NCBI GenBank assembly: GCA_964503955.1
Contig: CAZDCG010000003.1
Location: 626 to 64,625 of the forward strand
Reading direction: 5' to 3'
Length of the DNA: 64,000 nucleotides
Source of the DNA: an uncultured Gammaproteobacteria bacterium
Lineage (GTDB): Bacteria; Patescibacteriota; Patescibacteriia; VMEV01; CAYQCH01
Shown here piece after piece: positions 1 through 12,784 of this stretch. Every line of letters starts with the position of its first letter. The stretch's first letter is position 1. The translations under genes and the position numbers were made by a program. A model generated the notes under the pieces. The model was not told the origin of the DNA and made no database searches. It worked only from the letters and a program-made list of their open reading frames with translations.

Positions 1-112
1 TATTGCTTTGAAAGCCTGCGCATTTGGATGAAGCGCTCGGCCCGTGAAAGCAGATCAAGGCTTGATATTTAGCGATGGATTATCAGTGGGGCAGGGAGCT
101 GTTTCTAAAGAC

Positions 113-135
113 GGGCGGAGATCTAACCTCCGCCC
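113..135. repeat. Hairpin repeat copy 1: GGGCGGAG-ATCTAACC-TCCGCCC
   Basis: Perfect inverted repeat GGCGGAG/CTCCGCC with an 8-nt loop. Similar copies at 689 and 1443. A second hairpin GCGGACA...TGTCCGC follows at 142-167. Confidence 0.5.
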
Positions 136-253
136 GACTTTGCGGACAAAGTACAATATCTGTCCGCCAGCCAACTGAGCTTTTGCAAAGATTTGCGATC
201 AGGGGTATGCTCTGATCCAGTTGTCATCTGCAATTTGCGGAAGGGAGGGAGAG

Positions 254-577
254 ATGGCAGAAGACGATGATTTTGAAAATGGCGTACAACGATACACGGG
301 ACATGAAGTCACCTGCGAAGACTTCGTCAACCATGTGATCGTTGCTATCGACGGTCTGGTTCGTGATGAGTCAGACGAGATGGTCTTCAAGCTCGAGGCG
401 CACCAACGAGCTTGCGAAGAGTGCGAGCAGCGCGTCGAACTAGCGCTTAAGACGCTGGGCATCGACTGCGTAGAGGAGTTGGATGCCCGTCAGGAGGCGC
501 ATCTGATGAACGATCGACTCGAACAGGAACGACAGCGGAAAGAGCAGGAGCAGCTCATTCCGCCAACCGAGGTATAA
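254..577 (+). CDS. Hypothetical small acidic protein
   Basis: ORF-track frame 221..577. Internal ATG at 254 (MAEDDDFENG...) is preceded by a GGGAGGGAGAG Shine-Dalgarno sequence. No recognisable domain. Confidence 0.35.
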   Translation: MAEDDDFENGVQRYTGHEVTCEDFVNHVIVAIDGLVRDESDEMVFKLEAHQRACEECEQRVELALKTLGIDCVEELDARQEAHLMNDRLEQERQRKEQEQLIPPTEV

Positions 578-688
578 CCATCGGTGTTGCTATACAGAGG
601 AGGAAAGCGCGTCCAATCCGGGGGGAAGGGCGCGCTTTCATGTTTACTCAGTGTCAAATGCCAGGTTTGATTTTTCCATCGGGTATAT

Positions 689-711
689 AGGCGGAGATGT
701 AACCTCCGCCT
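689..711. repeat. Hairpin repeat copy 2: GGCGGAG-ATGTAACC-TCCGCC
   Basis: Same inverted-repeat arms as 113..135. Intergenic. Confidence 0.5.
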
Positions 712-788
712 GACCTTATGATCTCGTTTGGCTGGCCTTCCATAAAGCGAAGCGCCGCAATCCCGGAAACAGGACTGCGGCGCGATGA

Positions 789-1343
789 TCAGCCTCTTGG
801 TTGCTCCCAAAAGCCATGCGGGCGGCCGATCATGCCCGAACGGTACTCGATGCTTTCAAAGCTGAGCCGCGCGTCGCGTGACGCATGTTCAGCCAGAAAG
901 CGGATCACATGGCGGCCCTGCGGAAGCGTGATTGTCTCAAGCCCGTCAAAGACGAGCTTGCCGGCATCGTTTGCCGGGGCAAGCGCAGCGACCGGTTCGC
1001 CGTCCAGCTCCATGACCAGGCTGCTGGCTCGTCCCTGAAAGGAGAGGCGAAGCCTGCGCAGCTGCATCTCATCGATGCTGATGATGACATGCAGCTCGCC
1101 AAGGACATGCGGCTCGGCCGGGTTGAGCGGCGCGAACTCGATGCTCACCGGCTGAGGACTCGGCCGCGCGGAAGGTTGTGGCCCACCTCCTTCAGACGGC
1201 ATTTGGAACAGGCAGGCTGGCTCGCTGGCCGTGGGGTATCCGCGCATCAGCGTGATGTGAAAGCCCCGCTGCCCGTATTGAGCGCCCGGCATTGCACAGG
1301 CGCTAAGCAAGGCAGACGCAAGAAAGAGCGAGAAACGACGCAT
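789..1343 (-). CDS. Putative lipoprotein, hypothetical
   Basis: ORF 789..1409 (-). The internal Met MRRFSLFLASALLSAC gives a signal peptide with an LSAC lipobox. GC-rich coding sequence. Start moved to the ATG at 1343. Confidence 0.5.
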   Translation of the reverse strand: MRRFSLFLASALLSACAMPGAQYGQRGFHITLMRGYPTASEPACLFQMPSEGGGPQPSARPSPQPVSIEFAPLNPAEPHVLGELHVIISIDEMQLRRLRLSFQGRASSLVMELDGEPVAALAPANDAGKLVFDGLETITLPQGRHVIRFLAEHASRDARLSFESIEYRSGMIGRPHGFWEQPRG

Positions 1344-1442
1344 CGTTGCCTCTCTGTGGTTTGGCGGTCGTTGATCGATGTTTATAACATGCCAATGCGG
1401 GCAAGTCAAAGGCAGCGTTGTCAGGAGAAGACACGAAAAAAC

Positions 1443-1465
1443 AGACGGAGATAAAACCTCCGCCT
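1443..1465. repeat. Hairpin repeat copy 3 (degenerate): GACGGAG-ATAAAACC-TCCGCC
   Basis: Imperfect copy of the 113/689 motif. Intergenic. Confidence 0.4.
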
Positions 1466-1499
1466 GTCATACACAGCATTCGTTAAGCTCGAGTGAACA

Positions 1500-1766
1500 T
1501 TACATGGCAAAACGCCGGCGCCATTCCTGCGGGTGCATCATCGCCCATTTGATCAGGCTGATAATGGCCAGCAGTTCGGGTATGAAGGTCCAGGAGAACA
1601 AGAAATAGACCACGCCTTTTTTAATGCGGCCAAGATAGAACCAGTGTGCGCCAAAGCCGCCGAGCAGCAGAGCCAAAGCCATGGCCAGGCCGCGTTTCTT
1701 TTCATGCTTTTCGCCTAAATCCCTGGTTTTCCATTTGATCTGTTGTTTTGTAAGCCAATTCATAAA
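1500..1766 (-). CDS. TM2 domain-containing membrane protein
   Basis: Motif GGFGAHWFYLGRIKKG is characteristic of the TM2 domain. GAGGTG Shine-Dalgarno sequence before the ATG at 1766 (MFMNW...). Confidence 0.55.
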   Translation of the reverse strand, partial: FMNWLTKQQIKWKTRDLGEKHEKKRGLAMALALLLGGFGAHWFYLGRIKKGVVYFLFSWTFIPELLAIISLIKWAMMHPQEWRRRFAM

Positions 1767-1875
1767 CATTGTTTGCACCTCGCTGTCCGTACATACTACT
1801 TGAGAAAGAGGATGTTTCAGCAAGTGCCACCCCTTTATACCCCTCCTAAGTTGGGGGGGTGGATCTCACCCCCTA

Positions 1876-1902
1876 GCCCCCTCTCTTCAAAAGAGAGGGG
1901 GC
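1876..1902. repeat. Palindromic repeat family CCCCCTCT-loop-AGAGGGGG, copy 1
   Basis: gCCCCCTCTCTTCAAAAGAGAGGGGGc. Related copies at 13004..13056, 32979..32999 and 45387..45450. Confidence 0.5.
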
Positions 1903-1989
1903 ACGCTCTTCCTTAAGGTCTATTACAAACACGAACGCCGCATACCGCCCGGGAGTGGGCAGCATGCGGCGTATTGATCGGCCGGGACG

Positions 1990-2169
1990 CTAGTCGTCCT
2001 CATCGTTGCGGTCGTTGTCCTCCTCCTCGCGGGGATTGACCGCGTAGCCGCCATGGCAGCGGCAGGTGCAGTCGGGATCCTCGCACTCTTCGCCTTCGCA
2101 GTACTCGTCGTCGCAGCCGCTCAGCGAGAGGCTCTCTTCGTCTTCATCTTCGGGAAATACCTCGGACAT
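1990..2169 (-). CDS. Small acidic Cys-rich protein (59 aa), hypothetical
   Basis: Translated by hand: MSEVFPEDEDEESLSLSGCDDEYCEGEECEDPDCTCRCHGGYAVNPREEEDNDRNDEDD*. GAGGTG Shine-Dalgarno sequence 4 nt upstream. At 59 aa it falls below the ORF-track cutoff. Divergent from mod. Confidence 0.4.
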   Translation of the reverse strand: MSEVFPEDEDEESLSLSGCDDEYCEGEECEDPDCTCRCHGGYAVNPREEEDNDRNDEDD

Positions 2170-2304
2170 AGCTCACCTCGTATGGCTGAAAACTTCCGGT
2201 TCGGGACAGGGTTTTTTACCAAGAAAAAGCCTTGGAGTCAAGGCATTTGCGGCATGTCAAGGATGGGAGAATGTGGTAAGGTATCTGAAGAAATAAATCG
2301 CTAT

Positions 2305-4233
2305 ATGCCTAAGAAACTCAAAGCAGCCAAAAAACTCTCCGGCGAATCCTTCCTGCCACAACAGGAACTTTTGGATCAGCTGAGAAAGAATTTTCCCGAA
2401 ATTTTTTCCGAGGGAAAAATTGATGTTAAGAAACTGAAAAAAACATTTGGCGAGCAGGTTGATGAAAGCGAAGAACGATATGGTTTAACCTGGGCGGGCA
2501 AAACAGATTGCTTTAGAGAGATTCAGGAACCTACAACCTGTACTTTAGTGCCTGATAAAAAAGAATCTGTTGATTTTGATAAAACCGAAAACATTTTTAT
2601 TGAAGGAGATAATCTCGAAGTACTAAAAGTTTTACAAAGATCGTACTACGGTAAGATCAAAATGATCTATATCGATCCTCCATACAATACCGGCAACGAT
2701 TTCGTTTACAATGACAATTTCAAAGAGAGCAAGGCAGATTATCGCGAGCGATCAGGGCAAAATGATAATTGCCGGCAGACGGCTTTGCAAAAGAATACGA
2801 AAGACAGCGGGCATTTTCACTCCAATTGGCTGAACATGATGTATCCGCGTCTGTTTCTGGCAAGAAATCTTCTCCGTCAGGACGGTGTCATTTTCATCTC
2901 CATTGATGACAATGAGGTTCATAATCTTAGGATGATCATGAATGAGATTTTTGGAGAAGAGAATTCTCTGACTGAGTCACCAACTGCTTTGATTTGGCAA
3001 AGATCTGGCACTACTGCAGGTCATTTTTCCAATGCACATGAATACATACTTTGCTATGCAAAAAGTAAGGTTGATACCCCATTCTTCCATTTGAAAGATT
3101 ATGGTTCTGAAAAGATCATTTCTCATGGAGCGTTAAAAAAGATCAGTCGAGCAAATCCAGAAAGTGAGATCACTTTTCCTGCTGGCATGGATTTTGAAGG
3201 AGAAGATGCTACGTTTGAGGGAGTCATTGGTGGCTCTGAAAAGCAAACGATAAATGGAAAGATGATATTCAAAGGAGGGAAATTACAGAAGCCCGTAAGC
3301 ATTTCTGCGGGTTGGGGAATGAAAGAACAAGTTTTATCATGGATTTCAGGCGAAGACACGTTCGACACAAAAGGGCAGAGAGTTCTAAGGTTTTATTTCA
3401 ACAAGGAAGGAATACTTTGGTATGAGAAAGAGCGTGGTACTGTGCACCCAAAAACTATCTTACCGTCAAATCTTGGCTCGACAAAAACGGGAACTCAAGA
3501 GTTGGTAACTTTGTTTGGATCTAAATTCTTTGATTATCCAAAGCCAAGTGCGCTATTACGTTATCTGGCGAGCTTCTCCTCGCATGAAGACGATATCATG
3601 CTTGATTTCTTTGCTGGCACAGGAACAACTGCCCATGCAGTAATGGCTCTAAATGCTGAAGATGGAGGGAATCGAAAATGCATTAGCGTGCAATTGGATG
3701 AGCCGACAGATGAGAATTCAGAAGCGTATAAAGCCGGCTATAAAAATATCGCCCAGCTTGCGCGTGAACGTATTCGCAGGGCAGCCAAAGAGATTAAAAA
3801 GGAGCATAAAGATAAAAAATTGGATCTTGGTTTTAAGGCATTCAAAATTCATAAGAGCAATTTCAAGATCTGGGAAAATAACATTCAAAACGAAAAAGAA
3901 TTGCTTGAGCAGATGAAAATGTCTATCGATAATCTGAAAAAGGGAGCAAAAATGGAAAATGTGCTTTATGAGCTCATCTTAAAGCTTGGTCTGGATTTGA
4001 ATATTCAAACAGAAAAGAAAACTGTGGCCAAGAAAGAATATTTTCTCTTGAACGAGGGAGAAGTGGCTATTTGTCTTGAAGAAAAGATCAATCAGCAGCT
4101 TATTGATGCAATCGTAAAAGATAAACCGGTAAGATTTGTTTGCCTCGAACATGCTTTTGCCAAGAATGATGAACTCAAAACAAATGCTCTCTTGCAAATG
4201 GAGCAGATGGGGATTGATTTCAGGGTGGTATGA
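2305..4233 (+). CDS. mod: Type III restriction-modification methyltransferase (Mod), N6-adenine, beta class
   Basis: DPPYNTG motif IV precedes FFAGTGTT motif I. N-terminus MPKKLKAAKK is typical of Mod. ORF-track frame 2053..4233. The upstream 84 codons were rejected because they overlap the minus-strand small gene. Start uncertain (2263 or 2305). Confidence 0.8.
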   Translation: MPKKLKAAKKLSGESFLPQQELLDQLRKNFPEIFSEGKIDVKKLKKTFGEQVDESEERYGLTWAGKTDCFREIQEPTTCTLVPDKKESVDFDKTENIFIEGDNLEVLKVLQRSYYGKIKMIYIDPPYNTGNDFVYNDNFKESKADYRERSGQNDNCRQTALQKNTKDSGHFHSNWLNMMYPRLFLARNLLRQDGVIFISIDDNEVHNLRMIMNEIFGEENSLTESPTALIWQRSGTTAGHFSNAHEYILCYAKSKVDTPFFHLKDYGSEKIISHGALKKISRANPESEITFPAGMDFEGEDATFEGVIGGSEKQTINGKMIFKGGKLQKPVSISAGWGMKEQVLSWISGEDTFDTKGQRVLRFYFNKEGILWYEKERGTVHPKTILPSNLGSTKTGTQELVTLFGSKFFDYPKPSALLRYLASFSSHEDDIMLDFFAGTGTTAHAVMALNAEDGGNRKCISVQLDEPTDENSEAYKAGYKNIAQLARERIRRAAKEIKKEHKDKKLDLGFKAFKIHKSNFKIWENNIQNEKELLEQMKMSIDNLKKGAKMENVLYELILKLGLDLNIQTEKKTVAKKEYFLLNEGEVAICLEEKINQQLIDAIVKDKPVRFVCLEHAFAKNDELKTNALLQMEQMGIDFRVV

Positions 4234-5012
4234 GGAAGAAGATAAAAAAAGAACTACACTTTTTTGTCGACGAAGCAGGAGACCCTGTTTTCTTTAATCG
4301 AAAGGGGCAATTGATCGTTGGGCAGGAAGGTTGCTCAAAAACTTTGCTTCTCGGGTTCGTTATGACGGAGGATCCAAAAGCGTTGAGAAAATCTCTGTTG
4401 AGTTTGCATAAAGATGTTATAAATGATCCGTATTTGCAAGATATACCTTCGATTCAAAAAACAAAGGTCGGATTTCATGCCAAAGATGATTGCCCGGAGG
4501 TGAGAGAAAAAGTATACAAACGAATAAAAGAAATGGATTTTACTGCCGAGTTCATTATTGCAAGAAAACTGGAAAAGACGTTTCGAAACAGGCACAAATC
4601 AAAAACAACAATTTTTTACGACGACCTTGTCACAAAATTATTCAAAAACAAACTTCATTTGGCTGAAAAAAATTACATAACCTACGCCTCAAGAGGAAAT
4701 AGAAAGAGGGAAGAGCCCTTCTCAGATGCCCTGCAGGTAGCGATCAATGATTTTGAAAAACAGTGGAAGACAAAAGTAGACAGTGAATACAAGGTAGAGG
4801 CGCATCGCCCTTCGGGCGAACCTTGCCTTCAAGTGGTGGATTATATGAATTGGGCGGTACAAAGAGCATTTGAACGAGGAGAAATGAGATATTTCAACTA
4901 TGTAAAAGAGAAGGTCAAATTTCTAGTAGATATTTACGACTTTGATAAGTACCCGACAAATTTCTATAACTCAAAAAACCAATTTGATATAACAAAAATG
5001 AGCCCCCTATAG
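4230..5012 (+). CDS. DUF3800-like protein embedded in the Type III R-M operon
   Basis: N-terminal FFVDEAGD matches the DUF3800 DESG signature. C-terminal LQVVDYMNWAVQR matches the GLQxAD motif. Start overlaps the mod stop (ATGA at 4230-4233). Confidence 0.6.
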   Translation: MRKKIKKELHFFVDEAGDPVFFNRKGQLIVGQEGCSKTLLLGFVMTEDPKALRKSLLSLHKDVINDPYLQDIPSIQKTKVGFHAKDDCPEVREKVYKRIKEMDFTAEFIIARKLEKTFRNRHKSKTTIFYDDLVTKLFKNKLHLAEKNYITYASRGNRKREEPFSDALQVAINDFEKQWKTKVDSEYKVEAHRPSGEPCLQVVDYMNWAVQRAFERGEMRYFNYVKEKVKFLVDIYDFDKYPTNFYNSKNQFDITKMSPL

Positions 5013-5122
5013 CTAGGTCTTTCGGACGCATGGCGTGAAGCCAGCTTTCGCATATAGGAGACTCACTCGTGCTTATATCATATCAGACTTCTCAAGAATT
5101 GTGGAGAGGTTGTGGATAACCT

Positions 5123-7762
5123 ATGAAAATTCAATTTGAATCCAATCAACAGTATCAAATTGATGCTGTAAACGCGGTCGTTAATGTCTTCAAGGGGCAA
5201 CCCGCTGAAGAGAGCTTTTTTCATAGCGAAATGTCGCAGCCGGATGGCCGCTTGCCTTTGAACGGACAGATGGTTGTGGCAAATCGCCTTGTCTTATCGG
5301 ATGAGACCCTGCTAAACAATGTTCAGCAGGTGCAAAAAGAAAATAGCTTAGGTTTATCTGAAAGATTAGGAAAAAGAAATTTCACGGTAGAAATGGAAAC
5401 AGGTACGGGAAAAACCTATGTCTACTTACGAACCATCCATGAGTTAAACCAGCGATACGGTTTTTCAAAATTTATCATTGTTGTTCCAAGCATCGCGATC
5501 AAAGAAGGGATAATCAAGAATCTTGAAATCACCAGAGAACATTTCGACACCCTCTTTGAGCATCCTGAAATGGATTTTTATGTCTGGAATCCGAAGAAAA
5601 AAGGCCAGGCCAGAAACTTTGCCACAGCAAACTCTTTGCAAATTCTTGTCATGAATGTTCAGGCATTCGCCGGGAAGGGAAGAATCATCCATCAAGAAAG
5701 TGACTGGGGCGTGCCGATTGATTTTCTGAAAGCAACCAATCCGATTTTGATTATCGACGAACCTCAGAATATGGAATCGGACATTCGTCGCAATGCCATT
5801 GAAGAGTTAAATCCTCTTTGCACATTACGTTATTCTGCTACCCACAAAGAGCCTTATAATCTGGTGTATAAACTGGATCCCGTAAAGGCGTATGATTTGG
5901 GCCTTGTGAAGAAAATTGAAGTTGATTCCATTATTGAAGAAGATAATCAAAACGGAGCCTTTGTGCAGCTCATTGATGTTGTCATGAAAGGGCGCATTCC
6001 AAAAGCGAAAATCAGAATCAAATCGCAGGAAACAGTGGGAATAAAGGATAAGGACGTATCTGTAAAGGTAGAAGACAATCTATTTCACATCACAAATGAA
6101 CATTCCATGTACCGAGATGGATTTATCGTTGAAGAAATCGATGCGCAGGAAAAGAAGATCAAATTCACGAACGGAGTTGTGCTTTACTCCGGAGAAACCA
6201 ACGGAAGAGATCGTGATGAGATTATGAAATTTCAGATTCTTCGAACCGTGCAAAACCATTTCAACAAAGAATTGATGTTGGAAAACAGTGGGGTGAAAGT
6301 TCTCACACTCTTTTTCATTGATAAAGTAGAGAATTATAGAAGCTACGAAAATGGCAGCGCAGTAAAAGGGAAAATCGCGAAATGGTTTGAAGAGGCTTAC
6401 AACGAAGTGACCAAAAATCCTCAATATAAATCATTGTGCCCATTTGACGCTCATGAAGTTCACAATGGGTATTTCTCTCAAGATAAAAAAGGGCTGTTGA
6501 AGAATACGAGCGGGCGCACAGAAGCAGACAATGATACCTACGCGCTTATCATGAAAGATAAGGAAAGGTTGCTTAGCCTTTCTGAACCATTAAGGTTTAT
6601 CTTCTCTCACTCTGCTCTCACCGAAGGCTGGGATAATCCAAATGTTTTTCAGATTTGTACGCTGAATGAAGTAAGTTCTGAAATGAAAAAGCGTCAGCAG
6701 ATCGGGCGAGGACTTCGCTTACCGGTTAATGACGAAGGGAAACGAGTCACAGATTCTGATGTGAATATCTTGACCGTGATTGCAAATGAAAGCTATGAGG
6801 GATTTGCGCGATCTCTACAAAAGGAGATCGAAGAAGAAACAGGGGTCACCTTTTCAGGGCGAATTAAACCAGCTCGGGAACGACGTACCTTGCGTGTGGG
6901 GAAAAAAGCGCTACTTAACCCCGATTTTCAGGAACTTTGGAAAAGAATTAACAAGAAAACGATCTATCGTGTTCAATTCAGCACGGAAGAATTGATTGAA
7001 AAGGCGGCTGAAAAGTTGAAAGAAGATATCGAGGTGAAATCACCAAAGTTCTTAAGTATCCGTGCCTCCATTGATCTGAAATCCGAGGGGGTAAAATCAA
7101 ATGTAAAAGCGGTTCATAGTAGAATCGCTTCTGCATCTAAAGCGGCGGTTCCGGATGTTCTAACCTACATACAAAAGAAAACGAAACTTAGTAAGCAAAC
7201 GGTTTTTGAAATGATTGAAAAGTCCGATACGGCGAAGGAGATCTTGAAGAACCCCCAGCAGTACATGGATCAGGCAGAGAAGTTGATCAAAAATGTTCTG
7301 GGGCAGTTAATGATTGAGGGGATCAAATACGAAAAAATTGCCGGACAATCCTGGGAAATGCGGTTGTTTGAGGAGCAGGAAATTCAGACCTATCTTAGCA
7401 ATCTGTATCACGTACGAAATGAGGAGAAAACAATCTATGATCATGTGGTCATCGATTCAGCGGTGGAAAGCTCCTTTGCGAAAGAATTGGATAGCCGTGA
7501 AGACGTGAAATTCTATCTGAAGCTACCAAACTGGTTCAAGATCCCAACCCCCATCGGAAGCTATAATCCCGACTGGGCTATCGTCTTTCACAAAGATAAA
7601 CGAATCTATTTTGTCGCCGAAACGAAAGGAGATGGCGAATTGCGCCCTTCCGAAGAATTCAAGATTGCATGCGGGAAGAAGCATTTTGAAGAATTGAAGG
7701 GTGTTCACTATCAGAAAGTACTCGTAAAAGGTGATCAATCAAATGTCGATCGGTATCTGTAA
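5123..7762 (+). CDS. res: Type III restriction enzyme Res subunit (SF2 helicase + PD-(D/E)xK)
   Basis: ETGTGKT Walker A and IIDEPQN DEAH-like box. C-terminal YNPDWAIVFH...ETKG nuclease motif. 879 aa. Confidence 0.8.
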   Translation: MKIQFESNQQYQIDAVNAVVNVFKGQPAEESFFHSEMSQPDGRLPLNGQMVVANRLVLSDETLLNNVQQVQKENSLGLSERLGKRNFTVEMETGTGKTYVYLRTIHELNQRYGFSKFIIVVPSIAIKEGIIKNLEITREHFDTLFEHPEMDFYVWNPKKKGQARNFATANSLQILVMNVQAFAGKGRIIHQESDWGVPIDFLKATNPILIIDEPQNMESDIRRNAIEELNPLCTLRYSATHKEPYNLVYKLDPVKAYDLGLVKKIEVDSIIEEDNQNGAFVQLIDVVMKGRIPKAKIRIKSQETVGIKDKDVSVKVEDNLFHITNEHSMYRDGFIVEEIDAQEKKIKFTNGVVLYSGETNGRDRDEIMKFQILRTVQNHFNKELMLENSGVKVLTLFFIDKVENYRSYENGSAVKGKIAKWFEEAYNEVTKNPQYKSLCPFDAHEVHNGYFSQDKKGLLKNTSGRTEADNDTYALIMKDKERLLSLSEPLRFIFSHSALTEGWDNPNVFQICTLNEVSSEMKKRQQIGRGLRLPVNDEGKRVTDSDVNILTVIANESYEGFARSLQKEIEEETGVTFSGRIKPARERRTLRVGKKALLNPDFQELWKRINKKTIYRVQFSTEELIEKAAEKLKEDIEVKSPKFLSIRASIDLKSEGVKSNVKAVHSRIASASKAAVPDVLTYIQKKTKLSKQTVFEMIEKSDTAKEILKNPQQYMDQAEKLIKNVLGQLMIEGIKYEKIAGQSWEMRLFEEQEIQTYLSNLYHVRNEEKTIYDHVVIDSAVESSFAKELDSREDVKFYLKLPNWFKIPTPIGSYNPDWAIVFHKDKRIYFVAETKGDGELRPSEEFKIACGKKHFEELKGVHYQKVLVKGDQSNVDRYL

Positions 7763-7775
7763 ACTCATTCTGCTT

Positions 7776-7988
7776 ATGAGCATTAAAGATTCCCTGAAAG
7801 AGATCAGACGGTTGAGAAGACAATGGCGGGCAAATAGCTTTACAGCCAAAGAGCTGCAGAGAAAATATGGTTTAACTGAACAGCAAATCAGCAGGTTGAC
7901 ACCTGATCATCAATTTGGAGAAGAACGCTATTCTAAACCACATGTGTTATATATGGTGAGCATAATGTGCAAAGAGAAGGGGGAATGA
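7776..7988 (+). CDS. Hypothetical small protein, possible HTH
   Basis: FTAKELQRKYGLTEQQISRL is helix-turn-helix-like. Overlaps the res 3' end. Weak. Confidence 0.2.
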   Translation: MSIKDSLKEIRRLRRQWRANSFTAKELQRKYGLTEQQISRLTPDHQFGEERYSKPHVLYMVSIMCKEKGE

Positions 7989-8014
7989 CCTCTCCCTATC
8001 ATCATATCGAAATT

Positions 8015-8046
8015 CCGCAGCGGCGTATTGCAAAACGCCGCTGCGG
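8015..8046. repeat. REP-like palindrome upstream of the transposase
   Basis: CCGCAGCGGCG-TATTGCAAAA-CGCCGCTGCGG. Its first 19 nt recur inside the transposase gene at 8361..8379. Confidence 0.55.
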
Positions 8047-8055
8047 GCAAAATCA

Positions 8056-8064
8056 TGCTATAAT
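8056..8064 (+). promoter_or_regulatory. Putative extended -10 (TGcTATAAT) for the transposase gene
   Basis: TGCTATAAT lies 34 nt upstream of the ATG at 8098. No clear -35. Confidence 0.25.
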
Positions 8065-8097
8065 ACACATGCCCACACCCCGAACCAGGGGTGTTTT

Positions 8098-8592
8098 ATG
8101 TTGAAAAATCGCCAGTCGTCGAGATTGAAAGGATACGATTATGCGCAGCCGGGATCTTATTTTGTCACCCTCGTGACAAAATTCAGGTACCCGTTCTTTG
8201 GTAGAGTTATCAAAGGAAAAATGCATTTAAGCCGAATGGGATTTGTGGTCAGACGTGAATGGGACCGTACACTCATCATACGAAAAAACGTTGAACTAGA
8301 TGCATTCATCATCATGCCTGATCATCTGCATGGAATCATTCATATCAAATATGCCCATCCCCGCAGCGGCGTATTGCAATGCGCCCCTGCGGGATTTGTT
8401 TCACCGTCGCAAACGTTGGGGGCGATTATTCGAGGCTTTAAATCCGCTGTTACCAAAAAAATTCACGTGATGGGAAACGAAGAATTTTCCTGGCAACGAA
8501 ATTTTCATGATCGTATTATCCGTGATGAACAATCATTGCATCAGATCCGTGAATACATTCGATTAAATCCAAAAAACTGGAAAAGTCTTTAA
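8098..8592 (+). CDS. IS200-like HUH tyrosine transposase (Y1 family, COG1943), possibly REP-associated (RAYT-like)
   Basis: HUH motif MPDHLHGIIH. C-terminal catalytic Tyr context REYIRLNP. N-terminal LKGYDYAQPGSYFVTLVT. Contains the internal palindrome 8359..8393. Confidence 0.7.
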   Translation: MLKNRQSSRLKGYDYAQPGSYFVTLVTKFRYPFFGRVIKGKMHLSRMGFVVRREWDRTLIIRKNVELDAFIIMPDHLHGIIHIKYAHPRSGVLQCAPAGFVSPSQTLGAIIRGFKSAVTKKIHVMGNEEFSWQRNFHDRIIRDEQSLHQIREYIRLNPKNWKSL

Positions 8593-8599
8593 AACGCTT

Positions 8600-8650
8600 C
8601 CACCCCCACCGCCATCCGTCCGGGAAGGACTTCAGGCGATGGGGGTGGTG
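8600..8650. repeat. GC-rich stem-loop element E1, immediately 3' of the 247-aa gene
   Basis: CCACCCCCACCGCC...GGCGATGGGGGTGG gives a ~14-bp stem with a 21-nt loop. About 80% identical to E2 at 9499..9552. Confidence 0.55.
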
Positions 8651-8655
8651 AGTTG

Positions 8656-9399
8656 CTAGGCGCAGGCGAGCTCGGGGGCCTGCTTGCGGACCCAGTCCTC
8701 GCTGGGGCCGCCCGCGAGCAGGAAGCTGTCGAGGAGCTTCTTGCTGAAGGCCTTCGCCAGGATCTTCCCGTACGGCTCGTCGAGCTCGGGGTTGCCGTCG
8801 ATGTCGTTGAAGAACGTCTCGGGCCCCGCGAGATCTCGCTTGAGCACGCGCCGCAGGCGCTTGATGCCGTAGGCCTCGGCGATCTCCCACAGCGCCTGGT
8901 TGAGGAGGCTGTGGTTGTGGTGCACCCAGGCCAGCGAGGGGGAGTCCATGAAGGACTGGTCGCAGTCGCAGTGGAGCTCGGTGAGCCCCATCTGCACGAA
9001 GGCGTTCAGGAACTCCGACGGCTTGGCCTTCTCCGAGACCATCTTCTCGAGGGTCTCGAGCCAGCCGATGACCTCGTTGAGGCCGACGAGCTCGAACTTG
9101 GTCTGGAGCAGGCCTGCCACGCGGCCGGCGTCGGTGCTCATGGCCGGGGCGCTGTACCGCTCCTTGAGCACGAAGTGCTTGGACGCCTCGAGGAGGTCGC
9201 CCTTGGCGCGGGCCGCCTCGAAGGCGTCGCGGCAGGCCTTGGCCTGCTGGCTCTCCAGCATCCACGGATCGCGCAGCCGCTTGGGCGGCTCGAAGTAGCT
9301 GAACGCCTGCTCCTGGCGCTGGATGCGCTTCAGGAAGAAGGTGATGCCGTACTCGAGCTTCTGTCGGGCCTCGTTGCGCAGGTGGTTGAGGGTCTTCAC
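8656..9399 (-). CDS. Hypothetical protein (247 aa), GC-rich, probably horizontally acquired
   Basis: GTG start at 9399 with a perfect AGGAGG 5 nt upstream. About 65% GC. Features HCDCDQ and WVHHNH. The overlapping opposite-strand ORFs are GC-frame artefacts. Confidence 0.5.
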   Translation of the reverse strand: MKTLNHLRNEARQKLEYGITFFLKRIQRQEQAFSYFEPPKRLRDPWMLESQQAKACRDAFEAARAKGDLLEASKHFVLKERYSAPAMSTDAGRVAGLLQTKFELVGLNEVIGWLETLEKMVSEKAKPSEFLNAFVQMGLTELHCDCDQSFMDSPSLAWVHHNHSLLNQALWEIAEAYGIKRLRRVLKRDLAGPETFFNDIDGNPELDEPYGKILAKAFSKKLLDSFLLAGGPSEDWVRKQAPELACA

Positions 9400-9498
9400 G
9401 AGGGCCTCCTTTAATTAGATAAAAGAACAAAAATCAACCTCACTAATATAGCATAAGTGGCCTATTTTGTCAAGTGTTTTAGCAGCCAAAAAACAAAT

Positions 9499-9552
9499 CC
9501 ACCCCAACCGCCGTCGGTCCTTGGATAAGAACTTCGAGCGATGGGGGTGGTC
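9499..9552. repeat. GC-rich stem-loop element E2, immediately 3' of the 112-aa gene
   Basis: CCACCCCAACCGCCGTCGGTCC...GAGCGATGGGGGTGGTC, homologous to E1. Begins 12 nt after the stop of 9565..9903. Confidence 0.55.
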
Positions 9553-9564
9553 AAAGACGAGGCG

Positions 9565-9903
9565 CTAGAGCAGGCTATTGAGCCATTCGTACAGCAACGT
9601 CAGGCTCTCGTCGGTGCTGGAGAAGGTGCCGTCCTGCGTCACGGCGGCGTTCTCGTAGAACACGAAATGGCCGTTGTCCTGCGCGTAACGGACCAGCGCG
9701 AGACGCGGACACCGCATGACGCTTGAGGAGCGGATCATGCTGGGCTCGCTGAGGTTCTTGGCGAGCCACTCCTCCTTGCCGTCCCACTGGCGGATTTCGG
9801 GCAGAAAGCCGCGCTCCTGAACGGCGGCCAGCAGCTTGTCCGAGCCACTCACGACATGGTCGGTCATGCTGGCCGGGTACACGTATACGAACAACTTCTT
9901 CAT
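9565..9903 (-). CDS. Hypothetical small protein, paralog A
   Basis: Paralogous to 9952..10338: YAQDNGHFVFYENAAVTQDG versus FAKRHGHFLFFGRFAILSDE, and both end ...LLYEWL / ...LLSHWL. Confidence 0.5.
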   Translation of the reverse strand: MKKLFVYVYPASMTDHVVSGSDKLLAAVQERGFLPEIRQWDGKEEWLAKNLSEPSMIRSSSVMRCPRLALVRYAQDNGHFVFYENAAVTQDGTFSSTDESLTLLYEWLNSLL

Positions 9904-9951
9904 TGGTCCCCTTTTCAGCAGCGGCCGATTACCGCTGAGTGGGCGATTACA

Positions 9952-10338
9952 TCATAGTTCAGACGGCAAGTCAACGGCGCGGGCAGATTCCCACTGATGC
10001 GCAAGCCAGTGGCTGAGCAGAGCGGCCGCATCTTGATCCATGACATAGGTCTCATCAGAGAGGATCGCAAAACGGCCAAAGAATAAAAAGTGGCCATGCC
10101 TTTTTGCAAAATGTGCGATCTGCGCGACGGTGCAATCCATGGATTGCGAAATGCGTATCAGGCTTGGCGGCGCATGCACAGGAATTGAAGAAAGTTTCCC
10201 ATTCCAGAGATATGCTTCAGGGATAATCCTTTGCTTGCTCAGGGTATCCGCCAGCCAAAAAGACAGAGCGGCCAATTGTTTGAAGCTCATCGGTGACGGC
10301 TGATAGATCCGGACGCGTTTTATCTTCCTGTTAGGCAT
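9952..10338 (-). CDS. Hypothetical small protein, paralog B
   Basis: Paralog of 9565..9903. Same strand, in tandem. Confidence 0.5.
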   Translation of the reverse strand: MPNRKIKRVRIYQPSPMSFKQLAALSFWLADTLSKQRIIPEAYLWNGKLSSIPVHAPPSLIRISQSMDCTVAQIAHFAKRHGHFLFFGRFAILSDETYVMDQDAAALLSHWLAHQWESARAVDLPSEL

Positions 10339-10395
10339 ATCTCAGAGACAAAAATCCCTCCTTTTAAGGAGGGAAGTTGCCGGCACTATGCTTTC

Positions 10396-10536
10396 TTAAA
10401 GATCAATACACCAATCCTTACTAATGATACAAAGATCTTTGTTCTTTTTCGTTGCGCCGGTTGAAGGAATTGCCGCCAGTGCGAATACAGCAGTACCCAG
10501 AACAAAGGATGAAAGCAGTCGTTTCAAATCCATAGA
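10396..10536 (-). CDS. Small secreted Cys-containing peptide, hypothetical
   Basis: MDLKRLLSSFVLGTAVFALAAIPSTGA has a signal-peptide-like N-terminus. The mature ~20 aa carries C..C. Start moved to the internal Met. Confidence 0.3.
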   Translation of the reverse strand, partial: SMDLKRLLSSFVLGTAVFALAAIPSTGATKKNKDLCIISKDWCIDL

Positions 10537-10754
10537 AATAATGCGTTTAAGTGAAATCCCCTCGATTCTATTACACAAAAAGCTGAACAATCTGCCGTAG
10601 GTGGTCTATGAGGTTGTAGGTTTTCGTTGTTCGTTTTTCGTGCCTTCTCACTGTATTTCCTAAGACCTAACACCTAAAACCTAGCTCGTTACCTTTTTCA
10701 AAATGCCTCGTATATACTAGTAGATGCGTAACGTATGACGCACTATCTACACCT

Positions 10755-11315
10755 ATGGATCCACAAGAACAGGCGCTGATCGCGTCTGCCAAAGAGGGGA
10801 ACGCGCAAGCTTTTGGCGAGCTTTATGACCGGTATATCAAGTCCATCTACGACTTCATCTACTATAAGACCTGGCATAAAGAAACCGCCGAAGACCTGAC
10901 GAGTCAAACCTTTTTCAAAGCGCTTCGCCAGCTGGCGAGCTATGCGCCGAAAAAGGCGGAGTTCTCCACCTGGCTCTACAGCATCGCACGCAATACCGTC
11001 ATTGACCATTACCGGACAAACCGTCCGCAAGATCCGATTGAAGATGCGCTTGCCCTTTCATCGCAAGGAGAGACCGACATCAGGCTTGACGCCAGGTTGA
11101 AACTTGAAAAGGTCAAAGAGGCCCTTGCCCGGCTCACACCCATGCAGCGCGAAATTATTTTGCTGAGAGTCTGGCAGGAGAAAAGCCATGAGGAAATCGC
11201 GGCGATTACCGGCAAAACGGAATCGGCCGTAAAAATGGCCTATTCACGGGCAATCAAGCAGCTTCGCTCTTCTGTTCCACTTAGCGCTTATCTTTTCTTC
11301 CTCCTTCACCTATGA
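10755..11315 (+). CDS. ECF-type RNA polymerase sigma factor (sigma-70 regions 2 and 4)
   Basis: Region 2: FGELYDRYIKSIYDFIYY...WLYSIARNTVIDHYR. Region 4: EIILLRVWQEKSHEEIAAITGKTESAVKMAYSRAIKQLR. Confidence 0.8.
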   Translation: MDPQEQALIASAKEGNAQAFGELYDRYIKSIYDFIYYKTWHKETAEDLTSQTFFKALRQLASYAPKKAEFSTWLYSIARNTVIDHYRTNRPQDPIEDALALSSQGETDIRLDARLKLEKVKEALARLTPMQREIILLRVWQEKSHEEIAAITGKTESAVKMAYSRAIKQLRSSVPLSAYLFFLLHL

Positions 11316-12784
11316 AAAAACGCTCGATCCAGGAAATCCTTGAGGAGCTCTATGAGCTGGACGCGTCCTTGCGCGGCCGCGAACGGGAGCTTGAACCTCT
11401 GCTTGAGCAGCTGCTCGCCGCCAAGCCGGATACCCGCCTGAACAAGACATTTATCAATAGACTTAAAAAAGAACTTATGCAGGAAATGCAACCAACAGCA
11501 AAGCCGCTGATTGATTTCAAGTCGGCTTTGGGCGGCGCCCTTGCCACCGGGCTTATTGCCGTCGTGCTCTTTGTGGCTGTCGCGCCGAATCGTTCGCTGA
11601 TGCCGCAGATTTCACAGGATGGCAATCTCTCGTTCTTTGCACCGCAGACAACAAGGCTTGGCGGCAAAGCCTTTGGCGTGCTGACAGGCGATGCCTCGCA
11701 GGAAACTGATCTTTCAAAGATTTCCGCCCGCAATCCGGTTCCGGGCTTTGGCGGAGGCGGAGTCGTGGAAGACAGGGAAATGTCTGGTTTGATCTATCGT
11801 CCGGTTGAAGTACGCTATACCTATACAGGCGAGCCGCTTGAACTCACTCAGGAACAGGGGAATGTCTACCGCCGCCTCAAAGGTGAAGCATCCGCGGCAC
11901 AGCTGGCTTCCCATCTGCGATCTGTGAACCTGTCTGTGCTCAATCTTGGATCATTCAGCAATTTGATGCTCAATACCTTTCAGCTCTCTGAAAACCGCGA
12001 CCTGGGACTGCAGCTCTATGTTGATCTGATGGAAAGCTCCATCTCTATCAATCCAAACTGGGAGCGCTGGGGAAATGACTACAATCCGATTCCGGTTGAC
12101 CGGCTTCCATCCGATGAGGAATTGATCGCCATCGCGAATAATTTTCTGAGCAGCCATGGTGTTTCACTCGCGGCCTATGGACAGCCCCAGGTGAATAAAG
12201 AATTCCGTTACTGGATCGCGCTTGAAGGCCAGCCCGCTCCGGAGATCAACGAAATCAATATTGTCTATCCGCTTCAGCAGGAAGGGTTGGAAACTATGGA
12301 AAGCTATGGCGGCTTCTACGGCATCAATGTCAGCATCAACCTTGCACGCCGCCAGGTATACAGCGTGTCTAACCTGATCGCTCCGCATTGGGAACAGTCT
12401 GCCTACGATCTGGTCACTGACGCAGAGCGCGTGCTGGCCGTGGCGGAGCGCGGAGGACAGCCTATCTACTTCTTTGACCAGCCTGAAGAAAACCAGGAAG
12501 TGGTGGAGGTCCAGCTTGACCGGGCGGAACAAGTGTATGTACGTCACTGGGAATACAAGAATGACAAGTCAGAAGAGCTCTTTGTGCCAGCCATTAGATT
12601 CCACGTGGCAGAGCGGCCGGAGAACGCCCCTTACATTCAGGACTATATCGTCGTGCCGTTGATTGACGAGATTCTGAAGTCGTATGAAACGCAGCCGGAT
12701 GGATCCGTCAGACCGGAGCCTCGGCCATTACCGGTTGAACCGTTGATCGACGCGGACGCGCCGGTCGCGAGCACGGAAGGATAA
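11312..12784 (+). CDS. Putative anti-sigma factor / single-pass membrane protein with large extracytoplasmic domain
   Basis: ATGA overlap with the sigma gene. Architecture is ~80 aa cytoplasmic, TM (GGALATGLIAVVLFVAVA), then ~380 aa outside. Paralogous to 13811..14833. Confidence 0.55.
   Translation: MKKRSIQEILEELYELDASLRGRERELEPLLEQLLAAKPDTRLNKTFINRLKKELMQEMQPTAKPLIDFKSALGGALATGLIAVVLFVAVAPNRSLMPQISQDGNLSFFAPQTTRLGGKAFGVLTGDASQETDLSKISARNPVPGFGGGGVVEDREMSGLIYRPVEVRYTYTGEPLELTQEQGNVYRRLKGEASAAQLASHLRSVNLSVLNLGSFSNLMLNTFQLSENRDLGLQLYVDLMESSISINPNWERWGNDYNPIPVDRLPSDEELIAIANNFLSSHGVSLAAYGQPQVNKEFRYWIALEGQPAPEINEINIVYPLQQEGLETMESYGGFYGINVSINLARRQVYSVSNLIAPHWEQSAYDLVTDAERVLAVAERGGQPIYFFDQPEENQEVVEVQLDRAEQVYVRHWEYKNDKSEELFVPAIRFHVAERPENAPYIQDYIVVPLIDEILKSYETQPDGSVRPEPRPLPVEPLIDADAPVASTEG

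What the first reader, a model, noticed from the sequence alone, without database searches (positions are those of the whole stretch)
1990..7762. Type III R-M operon with an embedded, translationally coupled DUF3800-like gene (mod-X-res)
mod (DPPYNTG / FxGxG, beta-class) and res (SF2 helicase + PD-(D/E)xK) are interrupted by a 260-aa ORF. Its ATG overlaps the mod stop codon (ATGA at 4230-4233). Its N-terminus (FFVDEAGD) and C-terminus (LQVVDYMNWAVQR) match the DUF3800 signatures. DUF3800 is a predicted RNase H-like module seen in defence islands. A canonical Type III system needs only Mod and Res, so a coupled third gene suggests a modified or hybrid defence system, for example an added effector/abortive-infection module or a regulator of Res loading. 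A divergently transcribed 59-aa acidic Cys-rich ORF (1990..2169) shares the promoter region.
Basis: partly seen in the sequence, partly recalled or inferred. Interest (0 to 1): 0.72.

Follow-up and report, generated by a model that had tools for sequence, protein, structure and literature searches.

The report
Nuclease gene with antisense RNA partner
The extra gene inside this restriction-modification operon is a self-contained cargo module, an RNase H-like DUF3800 nuclease always paired with a previously uncatalogued structured antisense small RNA, sitting in a slot where related operons carry other defence genes.

Summary
In detail: mod (2305-4233), a 260-aa DUF3800 gene X (4230-5012, ATGA overlap) and res (5123-7762) form one co-oriented block on a low-GC island in a probable Patescibacteria genome.

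X is not a Type III component. Of 80 close relatives in other genomes, only 5-6 lie in Type III operons. About 17 sit in or beside R-M/BREX/DISARM-like systems of several classes, and the rest sit among unrelated genes. Conversely, 39 of 68 related Type III operons carry other cargo between mod and res.

The main new result is a ~78-nt structured RNA on the opposite strand (about 4992-5070). It overlaps X's stop codon and has its own promoter and U-tract. It is present in 78 of 78 assessable X loci and in two 32%-identical relatives. Covariation is strong (98% of cells paired against 37-50% in controls). It matches no Rfam 15 family.

Best reading: an autonomous nuclease plus small-RNA module, probably toxin-antitoxin-like defence, embedded as cargo. 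The mechanism is inferred, not shown.

The parts
2305..4233 (+). Type III R-M methyltransferase gene mod (alternative start 2254; the ORF is open from 2053)
   Evidence: Pfam N6_N4_Mtase 4.5e-34; PADLOC MTase_III 3.1e-192, covering 15-640 of 642 aa. DPPYNTG and FAGTG motifs are in the translation. The gene call in the source contig is 659 aa.
4230..5012 (+). Gene X: 260-aa DUF3800 protein with a predicted RNase HII-like fold. Its start overlaps the mod stop (ATGA).
4992..5070 (-). Predicted ~78-nt structured small RNA, antisense to the last ~7 codons and stop codon of X. It is a three-helix junction: a closing stem P0, hairpins P2 and P1, and invariant junction bases GAAAG, UGC and CUAG, followed by UUUUU. 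The covariance-model match is 4996-5068.
   Evidence: Model R1: 78.2 bits, E=6e-17. Present antisense at the X 3' end in 78 of 80 loci, and the other two contigs end at X. Also present at two 32%-identical relatives. RNAalifold -27.8 (minus strand) against -13.8 (plus strand). 98.1% of cells paired against 37-50% in slid controls, and 224 double-compensatory cells against 3-35. Window copy MFE -31.8, z=-3.69. No Rfam match. Transcript ends are predicted, not measured.
5077..5105 (-). Candidate promoter of the small RNA: TCCACA-N17-TATGAT with an extended -10 TG, pointing towards X
   Evidence: Found by the promoter scan. In related loci a TTGACA-N16-18-TATAAT match of at least 10/12 lies on this strand at a fixed offset in 43 of 68 loci, against 2 of 68 on the other strand. 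Eight loci match 12/12.
5123..7762 (+). Type III R-M restriction subunit gene res (SF2 helicase plus C-terminal endonuclease)
   Evidence: Pfam ResIII 4.9e-15, DEAD 1e-8, RE_endonuc 2.2e-36; PADLOC REase_III 1.2e-291; NCBIfam type III endonuclease 6.9e-101, below its cut-off.
2250..8250 (.). Low-GC island (about 39-43% GC against 48-57% elsewhere in the window) carrying mod-X-sRNA-res
   Evidence: Composition profile and 2-kb bins across the whole window. No flanking direct repeats, tRNA or integrase were found.

Best explanation
**Shown**
- The window carries a Type III R-M operon on a horizontally acquired low-GC island.
- The mod-res junction of this operon holds a cargo module made of two parts that are always inherited together.
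  - Gene X encodes a 260-aa DUF3800 protein whose model has an RNase HII-like fold.
  - A convergently oriented ~78-nt structured element overlaps X's stop codon. It has promoter-like and terminator-like signals of its own.
- The module occurs in at least 441 species-level genomes in many genomic contexts.
- In this Type III lineage the mod-res junction is a general cargo slot.

**Inferred (mechanism)**
- X is a latent nuclease effector.
- The abundant small RNA binds X or otherwise holds it inactive. This is like an RNA antitoxin, and like the msDNA that restrains effectors in retrons; X is homologous to the retron type VII effector.
- Because the RNA is fully complementary to the 3' end of the X message, it probably also lowers X expression in cis.
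- Loss or alteration of the RNA during phage infection would release X, which would then degrade nucleic acid and abort the infection.
- Inside the operon, X is translated by coupling to mod and acts as an independent second line of defence behind restriction. It is not a subunit of the restriction enzyme.
For: **Anatomy and domains**
-.

**Strict protein-RNA linkage**
- The RNA is present in 78 of 78 assessable loci and at relatives of only 32% protein identity.
- It gives no hits in 0.8 Mb of Type III loci that lack X.

**A real structured RNA on the minus strand**
- 13 of 20 pairs show double compensatory changes, and 98.1% of cells are paired against 37-50% in slid controls.
- G.U pairs are abundant on the minus strand, for example 51 U.G at one pair. 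These would be A.C mismatches on the plus strand.
- Sixteen nucleotides are invariant, mostly in junctions and loops. That argues for protein or tertiary contacts rather than simple antisense pairing.

**Its own strong promoter and a terminator-like stem plus U-tract**
-.

**No conserved promoter or leader upstream of X**
- The conserved unit runs from the X ATG to the small-RNA promoter.

**X fold and homology**
- RNase HII-like fold.
- Full-length match to the PADLOC retron type VII DUF3800 effector model.

**Literature**
- DUF3800 is a predicted RNase H-fold nuclease in retron type VII (PMC7736814) and in class 2 CRISPR loci (PMC10910872, PMC12669027).
[quoted passage not shown] This favours an RNA partner acting in trans.

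**Embedding**
- About 17 of 80 X loci are nested in or beside Type I, IIG/BREX-like, III or Snf2-PLD systems.
- 39 of 68 related Type III operons carry other defence-type cargo in the same slot.
- This matches the published 'guilt-by-embedding' pattern (bioRxiv 10.1101/2024.01.29.577857).
Against: - There is no experimental evidence that X is toxic, that it is a nuclease, or that it binds the RNA.
- Catalytic residues could not be mapped onto RNase HII by sequence. Fold matches have modest TM-scores of 0.4-0.5.
- The RNA is a single copy, not a tandem array, so it does not fit classical type III antitoxins.
- About three quarters of X loci are next to unrelated or housekeeping genes. That is compatible with a non-defence role.
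- In the window the small-RNA promoter is weaker than in most loci: 9/12 plus TG, with no good -35.
- Transcript ends are predictions.
- I could not read the supplementary consensus drawings of PMC5737381. Prior description of this RNA outside Rfam is therefore not fully excluded.
Confidence: 0.5

Rival explanations
1. Pure cis-antisense control, like a type I toxin-antitoxin system. The small RNA works only by pairing with the 3' end of the X (or mod-X-res) message, triggering RNase III cleavage or blocking expression. It does not bind X protein.
For: The RNA is perfectly complementary to the X 3' end and 3' UTR by construction, and is convergently transcribed from a strong promoter. From my own knowledge, 3'-overlapping antisense antitoxins exist in type I systems such as txpA/RatA and bsrG/SR4.
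Against: The three-way junction, with 16 invariant nucleotides in junctions and loops, is conserved across phyla. That is more than pairing in cis requires. Other DUF3800-associated RNAs are not antisense to the gene and lie on either side of it (PMC5737381; in L063 a DUF3800-VIII RNA lies beyond the gene). X is a 260-aa enzyme-like protein, not a small membrane peptide.
Confidence: 0.2
2. One reading: X is a dedicated accessory of the Type III enzyme, making a hybrid system in which X regulates Res loading or acts as an extra subunit.
For: Stop/start overlap with mod. Five other loci have Type III MTase-X-Res in the same order, with gaps between mod and X of -4 to +1 nt in four of them.
Against: 74-75 of 80 relatives are not in Type III operons. 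X also sits in Type I M-X-S, Eco57I-like MTase-X-Snf2/PLD, DUF6079-X-MTase and housekeeping contexts. X is more conserved (52-61%) than the flanking Mod (29-53%). The slot carries unrelated cargo in 39 of 68 relatives, and 29 of 68 work with no cargo.
Confidence: 0.05
3. A non-defence ribonucleoprotein. X and the RNA carry out a housekeeping or RNA/DNA-processing task, for example removal of RNA-DNA hybrids with the RNA as cofactor or substrate. Their presence in the operon is incidental.
For: Most X loci have ordinary neighbours such as SHMT, transketolase, tRNA synthetase and peptidase M24. The closest fold is RNase HII, a housekeeping enzyme. X is common in small-genome Patescibacteria.
Against: Distribution is patchy across many phyla with about 50-60% identity, which suggests horizontal transfer. 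X lies on a low-GC island here. Methyltransferase, helicase-nuclease and BREX/DISARM-type neighbours are far more frequent than expected for a housekeeping gene. X is homologous to a retron effector model.
Confidence: 0.15
4. A selfish mobile cassette. The conserved structured element is a DNA-level recombination or transposition site (attC-like or IS200/IS605-end-like), not an RNA gene.
For: The gene is promoterless and carries a structured element at its 3' end, and it is found in many contexts. A Y1-transposase-like (RAYT) ORF lies 3 kb away in the window.
Against: The element has a consensus sigma-70 promoter at a fixed distance and a U-tract. Wobble pairs are strand-specific. No recombinase travels with the module, and the RAYT-like ORF recurs in none of 170 loci. 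No flanking direct repeats were found. It is almost absent from phage, plasmid and viral-contig collections.
Confidence: 0.07

Closest known systems
DUF3800-associated RNA motifs (DUF3800-I to -XI; Weinberg et al. 2017, PMC5737381; Rfam RF02969, RF02968, RF03075 and others)
   Same: A conserved structured non-coding RNA is tightly associated with a DUF3800 gene, often with a terminator. Its function is unknown.
   Different: No Rfam 15 family matches this RNA in the window or in 13 loci that carry it. This one is antisense, overlaps the stop codon so that the last codons of X are also one strand of the closing helix, and belongs to a specific ~260-aa subfamily. In L063 it coexists with a separate DUF3800-VIII RNA.
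Retron type VII (RT plus DUF3800 effector; Mestre et al. 2020, PMC7736814)
   Same: A homologous DUF3800 / RNase H2-like effector (PADLOC DUF3800_VII 1e-26) is paired with a structured nucleic acid encoded next to it.
   Different: There is no reverse transcriptase in or near the module and no msr/msd-type RNA. X keeps the QxxD motif (Q201..D204) that the retron-associated proteins are reported to lack.
Genes embedded in multi-gene defence systems (PrrC in Type I R-M; 'guilt-by-embedding', Payne et al. 2024, bioRxiv 10.1101/2024.01.29.577857)
   Same: A latent nuclease-type gene is nested between subunit genes of an R-M operon. Homologues also occur non-embedded. The slot holds varied cargo.
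   Different: That survey covered Hma, BREX, DISARM and Type I R-M, not Type III. DUF3800 does not appear in that paper's main text. Here the cargo brings its own RNA gene. Unlike PrrC, it is mostly found outside R-M systems.
Type III toxin-antitoxin systems (ToxIN-like) and type I systems with 3'-overlapping antisense RNA
   Same: Under the proposed model a protein effector is controlled by an abundant small RNA encoded beside it. The convergent 3' overlap resembles some type I systems.
   Different: The RNA is single-copy, not a tandem repeat array. The effector has an RNase H fold, not a ToxN/AbiQ fold or a small membrane peptide. Neither toxicity nor neutralisation has been shown.
Canonical Type III R-M (EcoP15I-like mod-res)
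   Same: Mod (beta-class N6/N4 MTase) lies upstream of Res (SF2 helicase plus endonuclease) on one strand.
   Different: An 889-bp cargo (X plus the small RNA) separates mod and res. In 29 of 68 relatives the two genes are less than 60 nt apart.

Membership tests
Type III restriction-modification system | Mod subunit: N6/N4 DNA methyltransferase with DPPY and FxGxG motifs | tested here: met
   Pfam N6_N4_Mtase 4.5e-34; PADLOC MTase_III 3.1e-192. Both motifs are in the translation.
Type III restriction-modification system | Res subunit: SF2 helicase/ATPase plus C-terminal PD-(D/E)xK-type endonuclease | tested here: met
   ResIII 4.9e-15, DEAD 1e-8, RE_endonuc 2.2e-36; PADLOC REase_III 1.2e-291.
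Type III restriction-modification system | Two-gene operon with mod directly followed by res | tested here: not met
   889 bp (X plus the small RNA) separate the two genes. 29 of 68 relatives have gaps under 60 nt and 39 of 68 carry cargo.
Type III restriction-modification system | ATP-dependent cleavage that needs two inversely oriented unmethylated sites, with hemimethylation by Mod | not testable with these tools
   Needs biochemistry and methylome data.
DUF3800 (Pfam PF12686) | Score above the Pfam gathering threshold | tested here: met
   24.4 bits against 21, E=5.1e-5, covering 1-148 of 149 profile positions. Most close homologues are precomputed as PF12686.
DUF3800 (Pfam PF12686) | N-terminal DE motif and C-terminal QxxD motif | tested here: met
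   D14-E15 are invariant. In LQVVD, D204 is invariant and Q201 is at least 90% conserved, in 25 homologues. The motif definition is as cited in PMC7736814.
DUF3800 (Pfam PF12686) | RNase H-like fold, closest to RNase H2 | tested here: met
Retron type VII | DUF3800 effector homologous to the retron-associated clade | tested here: met
   PADLOC DUF3800_VII 1e-26, covering 2-220 of 233 positions.
Retron type VII | Adjacent or fused reverse transcriptase and an msr/msd non-coding RNA | tested here: not met
   The neighbours are mod and res. No RT domain is present in these or in the flanking ORFs that were scanned. No retron RNA or any other Rfam hit.
Rfam DUF3800 RNA motif families | Match to one of the Rfam covariance models | tested here: not met
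   No hit at E<=1 in 1-12000 or at E<=10 in 4900-5200. None at this element in 13 related loci, where the only DUF3800-family hit was DUF3800-VIII at a different position in L063.
Type III toxin-antitoxin (ToxIN-like) | Antitoxin RNA encoded as tandem direct repeats that are processed by the toxin | tested here: not met
   No tandem repeats in 1800-8800 apart from two trivial 11-mers inside res. Each locus has a single RNA copy.
Type III toxin-antitoxin (ToxIN-like) | The protein is toxic and is neutralised by binding the RNA | not testable with these tools
   Needs expression and binding experiments.
Embedded defence cargo ('guilt-by-embedding') | Nested between genes of a known multi-gene defence system, with non-embedded homologues elsewhere | tested here: met
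   Seen in the window, in L003 (Type I), in L006, L013, L015, L035 and L061 (Type III), in L022, L025, L037 and L039 (Eco57I-like MTase) and in L044 (DUF6079). Most of the 80 loci are not embedded.
Embedded defence cargo ('guilt-by-embedding') | Demonstrated anti-phage activity | not testable with these tools
   Needs plaque assays.

The most novel reading that the evidence does not exclude
The X-sRNA pair is a new class of two-component immune or addiction module. It would be an RNase H2-fold nuclease kept latent, or given its specificity, by a dedicated structured small RNA, in effect a retron-type effector system that uses a transcribed RNA instead of RT-made msDNA. If so, this would explain the DUF3800-associated RNAs, whose function has been unknown since 2017. 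They would join HEARO/IscB and IS605-orfB/TnpB as cases where a Weinberg-type RNA motif next to an RNase H-fold nuclease gene proved to be that nuclease's obligate RNA partner.
Probability: 0.35. Interest if true: 0.8.

Novelty: new variant of a known kind. Interest (0 to 1): 0.68.

Why it matters
DUF3800 proteins recur as predicted nucleases in retrons and in class 2 CRISPR loci, and eleven unrelated RNA motifs are known to sit next to DUF3800 genes. No function or mechanism is known for the protein or for any of those RNAs.

This locus defines a compact module of about 0.9 kb in which protein and RNA are linked in every assessable case. The RNA's strand, promoter, terminator and three-helix fold can all be read from comparative data. 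That makes a simple experiment possible: clone the module, remove or recode the RNA, and test for toxicity, binding and phage resistance.

The survey also shows that the mod-res junction of a large Type III R-M lineage is a frequent cargo slot, filled in 39 of 68 operons. This extends the published 'embedding' principle to Type III systems and offers a source of further candidate defence genes.

Finally, the last codons of X are also one strand of an RNA helix. This is a clear example of a coding sequence constrained by the structure of an RNA on the opposite strand.

Tried and rejected
- **Rfam.** The 12-kb region, the 300-nt spacer at E<=10, and 13 related loci gave nothing for this element.
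- **Weinberg 2017 supplement.** I wanted to compare consensus drawings, but no text is held.
- **Catalytic residue mapping.** The profile against all PDB sequences gave no relevant hit. Residue mapping is therefore left at fold level.
- **Second model hit.** The hit at 53517-53585 (21 bits, E=0.01) lies inside valS and is rejected as chance.
- **59-aa acidic Cys-rich ORF as part of the system.** Rejected. It recurs nowhere, sits on the host-GC side and has no named cluster members.
- **85-aa HTH-like ORF and RAYT-like ORF as system components.** Rejected. Neither recurs.
- **Island integration signatures.** No tRNA, no direct repeats, no integrase.
- **Phage or plasmid origin.** No phage hit, one weak plasmid hit and two weak viral-contig hits.
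- **Plus-strand RNA or 3'-UTR element.** Rejected in favour of the minus strand on energy, G.U against A.C counts, and promoter position.
- **Divergent X among similar-sized cargo ORFs in related Type III operons.** Rejected. They are DUF1828/1829 or have no family, and there are no RNA-model hits.
- **RNA-guided nuclease reading.** Judged unlikely. The RNA has no variable single-stranded guide-like segment. Only the P1 stem varies, and it covaries as a helix.
Full report
**1. The observation**

The window contains three co-oriented ORFs: 2053/2305-4233, 4230-5012 and 5123-7762. A 59-aa ORF lies on the other strand at 1990-2169. The ATG of the middle ORF (X) overlaps the mod stop codon as ATGA at 4230-4233.

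- **Mod** hits Pfam N6_N4_Mtase (4.5e-34) and PADLOC MTase_III (3e-192).
- **Res** hits ResIII, DEAD and RE_endonuc, and PADLOC REase_III (1e-291).
- **X** passes the Pfam DUF3800 gathering score (24.4 against 21 bits) and hits PADLOC 'DUF3800_VII' at 1e-26.

The segment from about 2250 to 8250 has 39-43% GC. The rest of the window has 48-57%. The operon therefore sits on an acquired island.

The host is probably a Patescibacteria bacterium. The nearest named TyrRS relatives are Candidatus Peregrinibacteria at 57-58% identity.

**2. X is not specific to Type III systems**

X belongs to a tight family of about 260 aa.
- More than 1,100 clusters at 90% identity match it. The best 120 are 55-64% identical.
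- Relatives were confirmed in at least 441 contigs of the one-genome-per-species collection, across many phyla.
- In the exhaustive search, 1,016 clusters at 50% identity reach E<=1e-3 and 90 reach E<=1e-30.

I scored the 80 best genome loci with the window's Mod and Res.
- Only L006 has close homologues of both.
- L013, L015, L035 and L061 have more distant Type III MTase-X-Res arrangements.

Pfam and PADLOC classification of the neighbours shows other arrangements:
- Type I HsdM-X-HsdS in L003.
- Eco57I/MmeI-like methyltransferase-X, followed by Snf2-PLD in L022 and by an ABC ATPase in L037.
- Snf2-PLD-X in L041 and L064.
- DUF6079-X-methyltransferase in L044.
- Ordinary genes such as SHMT, transketolase and peptidase M24 in most of the remaining loci.

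About 17 of the 80 loci are nested in or directly beside R-M/BREX/DISARM-like systems. X follows a same-strand upstream gene in 60 of 72 loci, and the gap is 10 nt or less in 19 of these.

**3. The mod-res junction is a cargo slot**

The closest Res relatives (56-59% identity) carry other genes between mod and res. Examples are a 74-aa ORF plus a ClpP-like SDH protease, and a HerA-like DUF87 ATPase.

In a survey of 68 related loci in which both genes are visible, 29 have mod and res less than 60 nt apart. The other 39 carry one to three co-oriented cargo genes. These cargo genes include AAA_21/AAA_15/OLD-type ATPases, Schlafen-AlbA_2 with HATPase_c_4, RhuM, DUF1016/YhcG, Vsr with a C5 methyltransferase, and DUF1828/1829.

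None of them is X, and the RNA model described below finds nothing in these 0.8 Mb. In L006 the slot holds an Mrr-type endonuclease as well as X.

Embedding of defence genes within Hma, BREX, DISARM and Type I R-M systems has been described. PrrC is the classic Type I example (bioRxiv 10.1101/2024.01.29.577857). Type III systems were not part of that survey.

**4. The new element: an antisense structured small RNA**

I printed the 170 nt after the X stop codon in all loci. This showed a conserved block of about 60 nt that starts at the stop codon.

*Structure*
- Alignment and RNAalifold on the plus strand recover only two hairpins (-13.8 kcal/mol).
- On the minus strand the full three-helix junction is predicted (-27.8 kcal/mol). 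It has 20 pairs, and 13 of them show compensatory changes on both sides.
- The closing helix P0 pairs non-coding bases with the antisense of the last X codons (..SPL*). Synonymous codon choice at the end of X therefore covaries with bases about 55 nt downstream.
- G.U pairs are frequent on the minus strand, for example 51 U.G at one pair. They would be A.C mismatches on the plus strand.

*Controls*

| Measure | Observed | Slid structures | Shuffles reaching the observed value |
|---|---|---|---|
| Cells paired | 98.1% | 37-50% | 0 of 500 |
| Double-compensatory cells | 224 | 3-35 | 0 of 500 |
| Covariation score | 0.56 | about 0.06-0.13 | 0 of 500 |

*Distribution*
- A covariance model (R1) scores the window copy at 78.2 bits (E=6e-17, 4996-5068, minus strand).
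- It finds exactly one copy, always antisense at the X 3' end, in 78 of 80 loci. The other two contigs end at X.
- It also finds the RNA next to two relatives of only 32% protein identity (44.8 and 25.5 bits).

*Transcription signals*
- On the minus strand a match of at least 10/12 to TTGACA-N16-18-TATAAT lies at a fixed offset in 43 of 68 loci. Eight loci match 12/12. On the plus strand only 2 of 68 loci reach 10/12.
- In the window the scan tool reports TCCACA-N17-TATGAT with an extended -10 TG at 5105-5077.
- The closing stem is followed by a U-tract, which is the antisense of the Lys and Ile/Met codons.
- As a 79-nt transcript the window copy folds to -31.8 kcal/mol (z=-3.7, 0 of 200 shuffles as stable). 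The plus strand gives -22.4 (z=-1.8).

*Not in Rfam*
- No Rfam 15 family matches.
- Rfam does hold Weinberg's DUF3800 motifs. One of them, DUF3800-VIII, is detected at a different position in L063.

*Limits of the unit*
- Nothing conserved lies upstream of X. The inherited unit runs from the X ATG to the small-RNA promoter, about 0.88 kb.

**5. What X is**

AlphaFold2 with 25 homologues gives pLDDT 89.2 and pTM 0.88.
- The top seven Foldseek hits in the PDB are all RNase HII/H3, at probability 1.0 and TM-score 0.4-0.5.
- D14-E15 are invariant and sit in the first strand within VDEAGD. From memory, this resembles the RNase HII DEAGRG motif. D204 of the QxxD motif is invariant and Q201 is at least 90% conserved.
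- Sequence-level alignment to RNase HII failed, so the full catalytic set is not mapped.

The literature agrees on an RNase H2-like fold and reports no function (PMC7736814, PMC10910872, PMC12669027).

**6. Mechanism**

The following are shown: the anatomy, the strict protein-RNA linkage, the RNA structure and its strand, the fold of X, and the cargo-slot pattern.

The following are inferred.
- X is a latent nuclease effector.
- The strongly transcribed small RNA restrains it, acting as an RNA antitoxin. By analogy with retron msDNA, it may also act as a sensor.
- The RNA additionally acts in cis on the X message, to which it is complementary.
- Loss or alteration of the RNA during infection releases X.

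I favour an RNA-protein complex over pure antisense control for two reasons. First, the invariant nucleotides lie in junctions and loops. Second, other DUF3800 RNAs are not antisense to their genes (PMC5737381).

I put the confidence in this mechanism at about 0.5. The rival explanations are pure cis-antisense regulation (0.2), a non-defence ribonucleoprotein (0.15), a DNA-level mobile cassette (0.07) and a true Type III accessory subunit (0.05).

**7. Comparison with what is known, and novelty**

The architecture, a gene embedded in an R-M operon, is a known kind of thing. So are DUF3800 genes with neighbouring RNA motifs.

Four points are new here:
- this particular RNA, which is absent from Rfam;
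- its antisense arrangement, dual-coded with the end of X;
- its complete linkage to a large DUF3800 subfamily;
- the evidence that Type III mod-res junctions are common cargo slots.

I therefore rate the finding a new variant of a known kind, with interest 0.68. Its value lies less in the 'hybrid Type III system' that was proposed than in a compact, testable route into the unexplained DUF3800-RNA association.

Noticed in passing
window 5111-5119 (-); also L003, L007, L013 and L015 just beyond the small-RNA promoter: A perfect DnaA-box-like 9-mer, TTATCCACA, lies between the small-RNA promoter and the res start codon. The same 9-mer, or a one-mismatch variant, recurs in the closest X loci, but in either orientation and at no fixed position.
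   Followed up: partly
L063:1348-1412 (-): A known DUF3800-VIII RNA (Rfam RF03075, 55.6 bits) lies directly beyond the new small RNA at the same X gene. One DUF3800 gene can therefore be flanked by two different structured RNAs on the antisense strand.
   Followed up: no
L003:3339-3374 (-): An abiF RNA motif (RF03085, 42.5 bits) sits between hsdM and X in a Type I M-X-S arrangement, upstream of X and antisense to it.
   Followed up: no
L083-L168 (relatives of the window's Res): In this Type III lineage 39 of 68 operons carry one to three cargo genes between mod and res. These include OLD/ABC-type ATPases, Schlafen-AlbA_2, RhuM, DUF1016, Vsr with a C5 MTase, an SDH protease, HerA, DUF1828/1829, DUF6978, and several ORFs with no family. 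This is a possible source of new defence candidates.
   Followed up: partly
L171 (Annamia dubia plasmid AP025634.1), locus 2974-3553: The X relative (32% identity) matches in only two pieces covering 62% of the query and is annotated as small hypothetical ORFs, so it may be a pseudogene. The antisense RNA is well preserved (44.8 bits), as might be expected if the RNA is the protective partner.
   Followed up: partly
window 1990-2169 (-) and 1935-1972 (-): The 59-aa acidic, Cys-rich ORF is followed by a strong terminator-like hairpin (16-bp stem). It is found only in this genome's contigs, has no family and recurs in none of 170 loci. It may be a real lineage-specific small protein, but it is unrelated to the R-M locus.
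   Followed up: partly
window 2194-2244: Two terminator-like hairpins, 2194-2206 on the plus strand and 2244-2229 on the minus strand, lie in the 135-nt gap between the 59-aa ORF and mod, at the GC break. This region looks more like an insulator at the island edge than a shared divergent promoter.
   Followed up: no
window 8098-8592 (+): This ORF has partial similarity to REP-associated tyrosine (Y1/IS200-like) transposases (NCBIfam 62.8 bits, below the cut-off of 80; Pfam Y1_Tnp 23.3 bits). It lies at the right edge of the low-GC island and is preceded by a terminator-like hairpin at 8075-8094. It does not recur with the module elsewhere.
   Followed up: partly
window 7731-7988 (+): An 85-aa ORF overlaps the last 32 nt of res and has a weak Cro/C1-type HTH hit (E=0.007, below the cut-off). 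It might be a small regulator at the island edge. It was not found in related loci.
   Followed up: partly
window 53517-53585 (+): A weak match to the small-RNA model (21.4 bits, E=0.01) lies inside the valyl-tRNA synthetase coding sequence. I judge it to be chance.
   Followed up: yes
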